Position numbers and translations under genes: made by a program. DNA of 27,773 nucleotides from positions 1 to 27,773 of IMG/VR virus record IMGVR_UViG_2531839178_000008; one strand, 5' to 3'. Source of the stretch: a virus. Its lineage: Duplodnaviria > Heunggongvirae > Uroviricota > Caudoviricetes. The notes under the pieces are model-generated. The model ran no database searches. It was not told the DNA's origin and was given only the letters and a program-made list of their open reading frames with translations. This document shows, one piece after another, positions 6,835-6,973 of the stretch (the first letter of the stretch is position 1; every line of letters begins with the position of its first letter).

Positions 6835-6973
6835 GAACTTTGGTGGTGTGGTAGGTGGGAGACCCATTTTGACCTGTTTCGGCCTACTTCAATTCGGCAA
6901 TAGTCCCGCAGGCCTCGCCGCTTTACGTGCGACATATTCCCGTCCATGAACCCTTCACCACACCCCAAAGTTC
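6835..6973 (-). promoter_or_regulatory. long-range RNA helix in the N leader adjacent to the N ribosome-binding site
   Basis: 6835..6855 and 6952..6973 are near-perfect inverted repeats (about 18 bp with one bulge) enclosing about 100 nt; on the leftward transcript the 3' arm ends 3 nt before the AGGAGG of N. Confidence 0.4.

What the first reader, a model, noticed from the sequence alone, without database searches (positions are those of the whole stretch)
6835..6973. About 18-bp long-range helix in the N leader abutting the N ribosome-binding site
Inverted repeats at 6835..6855 and 6952..6973 enclose about 100 nt, and the 3' arm ends 3 nt from the AGGAGG of N. This architecture resembles the RNase III-processed stem that controls N translation in lambda, suggesting N synthesis here is also regulated by leader structure.
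Basis: inference. Interest (0 to 1): 0.45.

Follow-up and report, generated by a model that had tools for sequence, protein, structure and literature searches.

The report
Conserved RNase III-type stem before gene N
The long RNA helix just upstream of this prophage's N gene is real and is the counterpart of the RNase III-cut stem that tunes N protein synthesis in phage lambda, so it is a well-supported but ordinary lambdoid control element.

Summary
On the leftward (minus-strand) early transcript, 6975..6956 pairs with 6853..6833. That gives 20 to 21 pairs with one bulged A (6844), enclosing 102 nt and ending 1 to 3 nt from the N Shine-Dalgarno sequence. The helix is in the minimum-energy and centroid folds, and no shuffle reached it (0/300).

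It is not merely like the lambda stem. The arms are the same sequence (lambda GGCUUUGGGGUGUGUG / CACACACC-A-CCAAAGCU), at the same place between nutL and N.

An unbiased helix search upstream of about 355 N genes from five unrelated N families found the same design in 323. The design has a base of UUUGG/CCAAA, a one-base bulge on the 3' arm, and a free-varying distal half. Across 43 distinct arm pairs, 14 of 18 pairs show compensatory changes (covariation 0.49 against 0.17 in shuffles and 0.07 to 0.10 in slid controls).

RNase III cutting and the effect on translation cannot be tested here.

The ~100-nt interior is an exchangeable cassette. A small conserved upstream hairpin competes for the base of the 5' arm, which is a modest new detail.

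Verdict: a known kind of element. Low interest.

The parts
7069..7097 (-). pL-type promoter (-35 TTGACC 7097..7092, 17-nt spacer, -10 TATCTT 7074..7069). The transcript probably starts at about 7062.
   Evidence: Consensus scan. The sequence from 7062 downward, ATCAGCAGGACGCACT, is identical to the lambda pL transcript start.
6986..7044 (-). nutL region of H-19B/933W type. It holds three hairpins: CACC-AGGGC-GGUG (7044..7030), the spacer dyad GAUUC-GAAUAU-GAAUC (7020..7005), and a boxB-like hairpin GCGCU-GACAA-AGCGC (7000..6986).
   Evidence: All three hairpins are in the MFE and centroid structures. The homologous stretch in the 933W record is annotated nutL, and in HK106 it is annotated nutL boxB (H62). 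That the boxB sequence equals P22 boxB is from memory.
6965..6980 (-). Small local hairpin 'HP0': CCAAAG (6980..6975), loop UGAA, CUUUGG (6970..6965). It uses the base of the 5' arm and so competes with the base of the long helix. It would be the 3'-terminal hairpin of the nutL fragment if RNase III cuts after UUUGG.
   Evidence: It is in the MFE and centroid of the 5' part of the leader in the window, lambda, P22 and phage 21. The last 6 nt are paired with probability 0.89 to 0.99; the fraction of shuffles reaching this is 0.004 to 0.08. This is suggestive only.
6956..6975 (-). 5' arm of the long-range helix (GUGAACUUUGG|GGUGUGGUG). By homology with lambda, the predicted cut lies between G6965 and G6964.
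   Evidence: The cut position is inferred from lambda positions recalled from memory.
6854..6955 (-). Enclosed interior of 102 nt, structured. It is an exchangeable cassette ('933W type').
   Evidence: The fold z-score for the element is -4.2. The same cassette, 89 to 100% identical, lies upstream of four different N families and in phi80 and VT2phi_272. H-19B, SPN9CC and L020 carry the same N gene but unrelated interiors of about 40 to 200 nt. There is no covariation inside the interior.
6833..6853 (-). 3' arm of the long-range helix (UACCACACC-A-CC|AAAGUUCAU). A6844 is bulged. The predicted cut lies between C6842 and A6841.
6826..6831 (-). Shine-Dalgarno sequence AGGAGG of N, 5 nt before the ATG.
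   Evidence: Read directly from the sequence.
6437..6820 (-). Gene N, 127 aa, 933W/HK97/H-19B-type antiterminator.
   Evidence: ORF list. Pfam N_peptide PF25694, E = 1e-15. The DNA is 98 to 99% identical to the N regions of 933W, HK97 and HK106.

Best explanation
The helix is the orthologue of the RNase III processing stem of the phage lambda N leader.

Proposed mechanism. On the pL transcript, the stretch just after nutL (5' arm, 6975..6956) pairs with the stretch just before the N ribosome-binding site (3' arm, 6853..6833). This closes a ~100-nt domain and places the boxB hairpin (where N binds) about 12 nt from one end of the helix and the Shine-Dalgarno sequence 1 to 3 nt from the other end. 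In this folded state N synthesis is held down in two ways. The ribosome landing zone upstream of the Shine-Dalgarno sequence is double-stranded. And, as in lambda, N with Nus factors bound at nutL can repress translation of N from close range. Host RNase III cuts both strands in the middle of the 20-bp helix (predicted G6965|G6964 and C6842|A6841). That separates nutL from the N message and leaves an N mRNA that starts AAAGUUCAUCAGGAGG with an open ribosome-binding site, so N output rises with RNase III activity.

What is shown. The helix exists. It is homologous to the lambda helix. It is conserved by compensatory change on the N-sense strand. Its placement between nutL and the ribosome-binding site is conserved.

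What is inferred. Cleavage by RNase III in this phage, the exact cut sites, and the direction and size of the effect on N translation.
For: (1) The helix is in the MFE and centroid folds and exceeds all shuffles.
(2) Lambda carries the same arms, GGCUUUGG-GGUGUGUG / CACACACC-A-CCAAAGCU, with the same bulge and position. The same folding method recovers that helix in lambda.
(3) A helix search with no sequence motif, run upstream of N start codons, found the same design in 82/82 933W-type, 76/76 lambda-type, 75/79 P22 gp24-type, 74/81 phage-21-type and 16/37 phi80-type leaders.
(4) In the alignment of 43 distinct arm pairs, 85.8% of cells are paired, 14 of 18 pairs have changes on both sides, and the covariation score is 0.489, against 0.166 +/- 0.015 in shuffles (0/500) and 0.07 to 0.10 when the partners are slid.
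(5) Many G.U and U.G pairs (for example GU:10 at columns 2-40 and UG:7 at columns 4-38) would be A.C mismatches on the other strand. The structure is therefore selected in the N-sense RNA.
(6) The geometry is 9 bp + 2 G-C pairs + 9 bp. The two central pairs, G6966-C6842 and G6965-C6843, are G-C in about 93 to 95% of the variants. In-vivo mapping found that the two positions between the staggered RNase III cuts are paired in about 90% of targets and prefer G-C or C-G (PMC6212723).
(7) Opening the region -20..+13 around the N start costs 16.3 kcal/mol in the full leader and 6.7 in the predicted cleaved mRNA (lambda: 11.7 and 5.0).
(8) Literature on lambda: RNase III positively regulates the N mRNA (PMC9032294, citing Kameyama 1991). 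The N leader is processed by RNase III (PMC5371410, citing Steege 1987). [quoted passage not shown]
Against: There is no direct evidence of cleavage in this phage or in 933W, HK97 or H-19B. I found no paper describing it, and the primary lambda papers were not available to read. The lambda cut positions (+88/+89 and +197/+198) are from memory. The Shine-Dalgarno sequence and AUG are not sequestered: opening -12..+5 costs 4.8 against 3.9 kcal/mol. In H-19B and P22 the predicted gain in accessibility after cleavage is small, so simple occlusion may not be the main effect. H-19B-type N is reported (from memory: Neely and Friedman 2000) to need fewer Nus factors than lambda N, so N autorepression need not work the same way. 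The more distant phi80-type leaders lack the canonical helix (21 of 37).
Confidence: 0.8

Rival explanations
1. The helix is a structural bridge only. It brings the N-Nus complex at nutL next to the N ribosome-binding site so that N can autorepress. RNase III plays no role in this phage.
For: The conserved placement of the two arms, immediately after boxB and immediately before the Shine-Dalgarno sequence, in all families. PMC5725501 stresses that the structured spacer may compact the nutL-to-SD distance.
Against: A regular 20-bp duplex with central G-C pairs is a canonical RNase III substrate. The homologous lambda helix is known to be cut. This rival is really a subset of the main model rather than an alternative to it.
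Confidence: 0.1
2. The helix is conserved at the DNA level as a recombination joint, a boundary of mosaic modules in lambdoid phages, with no RNA function.
For: The interior plus arms behaves as a cassette shared by phages with unrelated N genes, and the homology breaks fall at or next to the arms. The base UUUGG/CCAAA is almost invariant.
Against: The distal half varies freely but stays complementary: 14 of 18 pairs have double changes, and there are at least 15 different distal helices. G.U pairs are strand-specific. DNA-level conservation predicts neither.
Confidence: 0.04
3. The helix is a transcription terminator or pause signal, or a stabiliser of the mRNA 5' end.
For: It is a strong structure lying between the promoter and the first gene.
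Against: No U-run follows the 3' arm (CCAAAGUUCAUCAGGAGG), and the terminator scan found nothing there. The stem is about 90 nt from the 5' end, not at it.
Confidence: 0.03
4. It is a chance inverted repeat, or the footprint of a small ORF in the interior.
For: A 65-codon ORF (6771..6968, TTG start) spans the interior.
Against: No shuffle reached the helix score (0/300), and there is covariation across 43 variants. The ORF has no ribosome-binding site and is cut short by a stop codon in the phi80 version of the same cassette (sequences; ORFs).
Confidence: 0.01

Closest known systems
RNase III processing stem of the phage lambda N leader (between nutL and N; Steege 1987, Kameyama 1991, Wilson 1997 and 2002, as cited in PMC5371410, PMC9032294 and PMC5725501)
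   Same: The position on the pL transcript is the same, as is the transcript start. The arm core is the same (CUUUGGGGUGUG / CACACCACCAAAG). The bulged A on the 3' arm is the same. In both, a structured ~100-nt interior is closed by the helix, and the helix sits next to the N Shine-Dalgarno sequence.
   Different: The N gene downstream belongs to another family (933W/H-19B type, 127 aa). nutL is of H-19B type, with a spacer dyad. The interior is unrelated in sequence. The helix is more regular (9+2+9 bp) and ends closer to the start codon (-13 against -20). Cleavage has not been shown here.
Leader-trailer helix of E. coli rRNA operons (boxB-boxA-boxC antitermination signal followed by a long-range stem around 16S rRNA that RNase III cuts; PMC8632103, PMC10250234)
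   Same: A nut-like signal that loads Nus factors is followed at once by the 5' half of a long-range duplex. The 3' half is made later. The duplex is an RNase III site.
   Different: The rRNA helix encloses about 1.7 kb rather than about 100 nt. Its purpose is rRNA maturation, not control of a ribosome-binding site. There is no sequence relationship.
Other RNase III-activated messages (lambda cIII, E. coli adhE)
   Same: RNase III action on a leader structure raises translation.
   Different: In those cases the ribosome-binding site itself is occluded. Here the Shine-Dalgarno sequence is outside the helix.

Membership tests
Lambdoid N-leader RNase III stem (lambda type) | It lies on the pL transcript between nutL (boxB) and the N ribosome-binding site. 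| tested here: met
   pL at 7097..7069, boxB-like hairpin at 7000..6986, helix arms at 6975..6956 and 6853..6833, SD at 6831..6826, N at 6820..6437.
Lambdoid N-leader RNase III stem (lambda type) | A long-range duplex of about two helical turns closes a structured domain. | tested here: met
   20 to 21 pairs with one bulge, present in the MFE and centroid folds, z = -3.0 and -4.2. The same method gives the same result for lambda.
Lambdoid N-leader RNase III stem (lambda type) | The arm sequences are homologous to the lambda arms. | tested here: met
   Window GAACUUUGGGGUGUGGUG / CACCACACC-A-CCAAAGUUC against lambda GGCUUUGGGGUGUGUG / CACACACC-A-CCAAAGCU.
Lambdoid N-leader RNase III stem (lambda type) | Base pairing is maintained in evolution (covariation). 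| tested here: met
   14 of 18 pairs have double changes. Covariation is 0.489, against 0.166 in shuffles (0/500) and 0.10 or less in slid controls.
Lambdoid N-leader RNase III stem (lambda type) | The base-pair pattern at the cleavage centre suits RNase III (paired G-C or C-G between the staggered cuts). | tested here: inconclusive
   The central pairs G6966-C6842 and G6965-C6843 fit the rule in PMC6212723. However, the cut register is taken from lambda positions recalled from memory, and the paper's scoring table was not available.
Lambdoid N-leader RNase III stem (lambda type) | RNase III cleaves the helix in vivo or in vitro. | not testable with these tools
   No experimental data were accessible, and no paper on 933W, HK97 or H-19B leader processing was found.
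Lambdoid N-leader RNase III stem (lambda type) | N translation depends on rnc and on nutL (autorepression relieved by processing). | not testable with these tools
   Only an accessibility calculation was possible: 16.3 against 6.7 kcal/mol to open -20..+13.
Rfam curated RNA families | A match to any covariance model at or near its gathering score. | tested here: not met
   There were only chance-level hits in the window leader and none in the lambda or phi80 leaders. No curated family exists for this element.

The most novel reading that the evidence does not exclude
The element is a three-part device rather than a plain stem. A small conserved hairpin just upstream (HP0, 6980..6965: CCAAAG-UGAA-CUUUGG) shares the base of the 5' arm with the long helix. 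If RNase III cuts after UUUGG, the short remaining duplex would melt and HP0 would snap shut. It would then form the exact 3'-terminal cap of a ~98-nt nutL RNA, protecting the N-loading RNA from 3' exonucleases while it rides on RNA polymerase. A weaker variant of this idea concerns the excised ~120-nt interior cassette. It is exchanged between phages with four unrelated N genes, and in N-less phages it lies ahead of an isrK/C4 module. It might be a small RNA with a role of its own.
Probability: 0.2. Interest if true: 0.45.

Novelty: new member of a known kind. Interest (0 to 1): 0.2.

Why it matters
N is the first regulatory protein made after prophage induction. In Shiga-toxin phages of the 933W/H-19B group it opens the way to Q and so to toxin expression. 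If N output in these phages is tied to host RNase III as it is in lambda, then RNase III level (which follows growth rate and stress) would influence how quickly induction proceeds. For RNA biology, the survey gives a clean, covariation-supported structure for an element that has no curated family. It also shows which parts are fixed (UUUGG/CCAAA base, bulge, central G-C pairs) and which are free (distal helix, interior). None of this would surprise a lambda specialist.

Tried and rejected
(1) Rfam scans of the window leader and of the lambda, phi80 and VT2phi_272 leaders found no family for this element.

(2) Taking the 'outermost pair' from MFE folds of 300-nt upstream regions picked spurious long-range pairs. 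RNAduplex allowed huge internal loops and was unreadable. I replaced both with a local helix alignment.

(3) MAFFT plus RNAalifold on the 30-nt HP0 segments gave no structure, because the loop lengths differ and the alignment came out ungapped. A crude 7-mer complement count gave weak p-values. A pair-probability test was more informative but still modest.

(4) The primary lambda papers (Wilson 1997 and 2002; Court 2013 review) are not held. The supplement with the RNase III scoring matrix is not held. Searches for RNase III with H-19B, 933W or lambdoid N leaders found nothing relevant.

(5) A coding ORF in the interior was rejected (see rivals).

(6) An intrinsic terminator was rejected, because there is no U-run.

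(7) Covariation inside the interior is absent: the cassette copies are too alike.

(8) In alignment A1, variants with a different register (lambda-group L253 has no bulge; P22-group L095 and L098 have a C/A mismatch instead of the bulge; L064 has one G fewer) are counted as unpaired. The 85.8% paired figure is therefore conservative.

Full report
**Observation.**
The minus strand of 7100..6800 reads, 5' to 3': a sigma-70 promoter (TTGACC, 17 nt, TATCTT, at 7097..7069), then ATCAGCAGGACGCACU from about 7062, then three small hairpins, then the finding, then AGGAGG and the ATG of a 127-aa ORF.

The two arms pair as follows. G6973-C6835 runs through G6965-C6843. A6844 is bulged. G6964-C6845 runs through U6957-A6852, followed by G6956.U6853. 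Two further outer pairs are possible (U6974-A6834, G6975.U6833). The repeat finder splits the helix into I4 and I5 because of the bulge.

The helix appears in the minimum-energy and centroid structures of the whole leader (263 nt, -86.5 kcal/mol, z = -3.0) and of the 161-nt element (z = -4.2). No shuffle folded as well. A helix-alignment score of 42 compares with 23.9 +/- 3.5 (maximum 38) in 300 dinucleotide shuffles of the leader.

**Context.**
- The ORF at 6437..6820 is an N antiterminator (Pfam N_peptide, E = 1e-15).
- From the transcript start leftward, the DNA is 98 to 99% identical to the nutL-N region of 933W, HK97, HK106, mEp234 and many Stx1/Stx2 phages. The 933W record annotates only nutL there.
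- To the right of pL lie a terminator and three small genes, one of them DUF3024. Beyond them are a cI-type repressor (HTH plus Peptidase_S24), a cro/YdaS-like gene and cII. This immunity region is 95% identical to that of phage SH2026Stx1, not 933W.
- The finding therefore sits in the classical lambdoid early-left leader.

**Homology to lambda.**
The lambda leader (L002) has the same first 16 bases. At +81..+96 and +187..+203 it has the arms GGCUUUGG-GGUGUGUG and CACACACC-A-CCAAAGCU, which is the same core and the same bulged A as in the window (GAACUUUGG-GGUGUGGUG / CACCACACC-A-CCAAAGUUC). Folding the lambda leader with the same tool gives that helix in the MFE and centroid (z = -3.0).

In lambda this stem is the RNase III site of the N leader. 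The papers I could read state three things:
- The N leader is an RNase III target (PMC5371410, citing Steege 1987).
- RNase III positively regulates the N mRNA (PMC9032294, citing Kameyama 1991).
- N and Nus factors at nutL repress N translation about 200 nt away across a 'highly structured' spacer (PMC5725501, citing Wilson 1997 and 2002).

From memory, not verified here: the lambda cuts are at +88/+89 and +197/+198, and Wilson 2002 showed that processing relieves N autorepression.

**Survey.**
- I fetched up to 80 loci for each of five N families that do not align with one another as whole proteins: 933W type, P22 gp24, phage 21 N, lambda N and phi80 N. I added reference records.
- A local helix alignment used no sequence motif. 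It was restricted only to a 3' arm within 75 nt of the start codon and a loop of at least 30 nt.
- It returned the same design in almost all leaders: a base YUUUGG/CCAAAR, a one-base bulge (A or G) on the 3' arm, then 7 to 11 further pairs of quite different sequence.
- Examples of distal pairs are GGUGAAUGCAG/CUGUAUUCACC (H-19B), GAUGCGAUG/CAUCGCAUC (SPN9CC), GUUGCAGGUAG/CUAUCUGCAAC and ACUGGCG/CGCCAGU (P22 group), GGUGACGUG/CGCGUCACC (phage 21 group), GAUUGGAUG/CAUCCAAUC and GAGUAGCGCG/CGCGUUACUC (lambda group), and GCUGGC/GCCAGC (phi80 group).
- The canonical helix was present in 82/82, 76/76, 75/79, 74/81 and 16/37 leaders of the five families. At least two of the phage 21 'misses' (L231, L243) do have it and were lost because I placed their start codon wrongly.
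- The 3' arm ends at -13 (933W type), -17 (P22), -12 to -15 (phage 21), -20 (lambda) and -35 (phi80) relative to the ATG.

**Covariation.**
- I joined the 43 distinct arm pairs by an artificial GAAA loop, and they aligned without gaps (A1).
- On the 18-pair structure, 85.8% of cells are standard pairs (shuffles 67.6 +/- 1.1; 0/500).
- 14 pairs show changes on both sides, and 151 cells carry double changes (shuffles 54.6; 0/500).
- The covariation score is 0.489, against 0.166 in shuffles and 0.07 to 0.10 when the 3' partner is slid by 1 to 3 columns.
- Variants with another register are scored as unpaired, so the figures are conservative.
- Caveat: the arm windows were cut out around the helix found, so the alignment is anchored on the structure. 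The slid control and the number of different distal helices are the stronger arguments.
- The many G.U and U.G pairs would be A.C on the opposite strand, so the selected molecule is the N-sense RNA.

**Fit to RNase III.**
With the lambda register, the helix is 9 bp, then two G-C pairs (G6966-C6842, G6965-C6843), then 9 bp. The cut centre therefore lies in the middle of a 20-bp duplex. Those two pairs are nearly invariant in the alignment (GC 41/43 and 40/43). Transcriptome-wide mapping in E. coli found that the two positions between the staggered cuts are paired in about 90% of targets and prefer G-C or C-G (PMC6212723). I could not score the helix formally, because the matrix is not held.

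**Effect on the ribosome-binding site.**
The Shine-Dalgarno sequence and AUG are outside the helix, and opening -12..+5 costs 4.8 kcal/mol in the full leader against 3.9 in the cleaved form. Opening the wider landing zone, -20..+13, costs 16.3 against 6.7 kcal/mol. The corresponding figures are 11.7 and 5.0 for lambda, 14.8 and 5.7 for SPN9CC, and 17.8 and 9.9 for phage 21, but only 12.3 and 8.1 for H-19B and 9.4 and 7.9 for P22.

The helix therefore hinders rather than blocks the site. The conserved feature is that it puts boxB (7000..6986) and the ribosome-binding site at the two ends of one duplex.

**The interior.**
- The 102 nt inside the helix are not conserved across the families. There are at least six unrelated interiors, about 40 to 200 nt long.
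- The window's type is a cassette. It is 89 to 100% identical upstream of 933W-type (64 loci), phi80-type (12), lambda-type (2) and phage-21-type (2) N genes, and in phi80 itself.
- H-19B, SPN9CC and L020 carry the window's N gene with other interiors.
- Homology between unrelated phages begins and ends at the arms.
- RNAalifold on 18 cassette copies keeps the closing helix, with double changes in five of its basal pairs, but finds no covariation inside, because the copies are too alike.
- The ORF that crosses the interior is not conserved.

**A small extra hairpin.**
Immediately 5' of the 5' arm lies CCAAAG (6980..6975). It is the same sequence as the base of the 3' arm and can pair locally with CUUUGG (6970..6965). 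Equivalent hairpins exist in lambda (UCAAAGC/GCUUUGG), P22 (CCAAAC/GUUUGG) and phage 21 (CCAGAACU/GGUUUUGG; variant CCAAAAUC/GAUUUUGG), but not clearly in phi80.

They are in the MFE and centroid of the RNA made before the 3' arm exists, and they end exactly at the recalled lambda cut. The last six bases are paired with probability 0.89 to 0.99, and 0.4 to 8% of composition-matched shuffles reach this. A cruder test was unconvincing.

I regard this as suggestive. It could be a transient co-transcriptional fold, or the 3' cap of the released nutL fragment.

**Comparison and verdict.**
The element works like, and by every sequence-level criterion is a member of, the lambda N-leader RNase III stem family. 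The two experimental criteria, cleavage and rnc- or nutL-dependent translation, could not be tested.

No Rfam family covers it, and I found no paper that describes it for 933W, HK97 or H-19B-type phages. I recall that conservation between lambda, 21 and P22 was noted by Franklin in 1985, but I could not check this.

It is a new member of a known kind. The biology is expected and the interest is low. The covariation survey, the cassette behaviour of the interior and the upstream mini-hairpin are minor additions.

Noticed in passing
window 6965..6980 (minus strand): A mini-hairpin, CCAAAG-UGAA-CUUUGG, shares the base of the 5' arm with the long helix. The same arrangement occurs in lambda, P22 and phage 21 leaders. 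It would be the 3'-terminal hairpin of the nutL fragment after RNase III cleavage.
   Followed up: partly
window 6854..6955; loci L001, L005, L231, L243, L298, L325, L329-L346: The ~100-nt interior plus arms is a mobile cassette. Copies 89 to 100% identical sit upstream of four unrelated N gene families, whereas phages with the window's N gene (H-19B, SPN9CC, L020) carry unrelated interiors of about 40 to 200 nt.
   Followed up: partly
L005 (VT2phi_272, HQ424691) 701..1140: In this Stx2 phage and its relatives (PA8, Stx2a_F765, PhiR12_3) the same helix cassette is not followed by an N gene. It is followed by Rfam-significant isrK (889..964, 58.7 bits) and C4 antisense RNA (989..1076, 77.1 bits), and then by a Rha-family gene. 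This is a phi80-like early-left leader fused to a P1/Gifsy-type isrK/C4 immunity module.
   Followed up: partly
window 8726..9462 (minus strand): The cI-type repressor appears split into two overlapping ORFs in different frames: an HTH part at 9079..9462 and a Peptidase_S24 part at 8726..9130. The closest phage, SH2026Stx1, has one cI gene, and the aligned stretch differs in length by 2 nt. This may be a frameshift (a defective repressor) or a sequencing error.
   Followed up: partly
window 6387..6437 (minus strand): Directly after, and overlapping, the N stop codon, another frame reads TCVGRQKMKSGSKPLI*. This is nearly the C-terminus of phage 21 N (VTCVGRQKIKLGSKPLI*) and of lambda N. It looks like a relic of a replaced N gene and marks a mosaic joint. 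It also explains the BLAST hits to other N genes at 6400..6502.
   Followed up: no
window 5752..6378 (minus strand): The gene just downstream of N encodes an Nmad5 protein (nucleotide modification associated domain 5; Pfam E = 3e-71). This is an unusual first delayed-early gene.
   Followed up: no
L176, L177 (phage 21 group): A G-to-A change in the 5' arm (GAUUUUGG) breaks a pair of the long helix but creates a U-A pair in the upstream mini-hairpin (CCAAAAUC). This hints that the mini-hairpin is itself under selection.
   Followed up: no
L347..L365 (distant phi80-type N genes): Most leaders of the more divergent phi80-type N genes lack the canonical UUUGG/CCAAA helix. Several instead have a terminator-like GGCGGCC-UUUUU hairpin upstream, which suggests a different leader architecture.
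   Followed up: no
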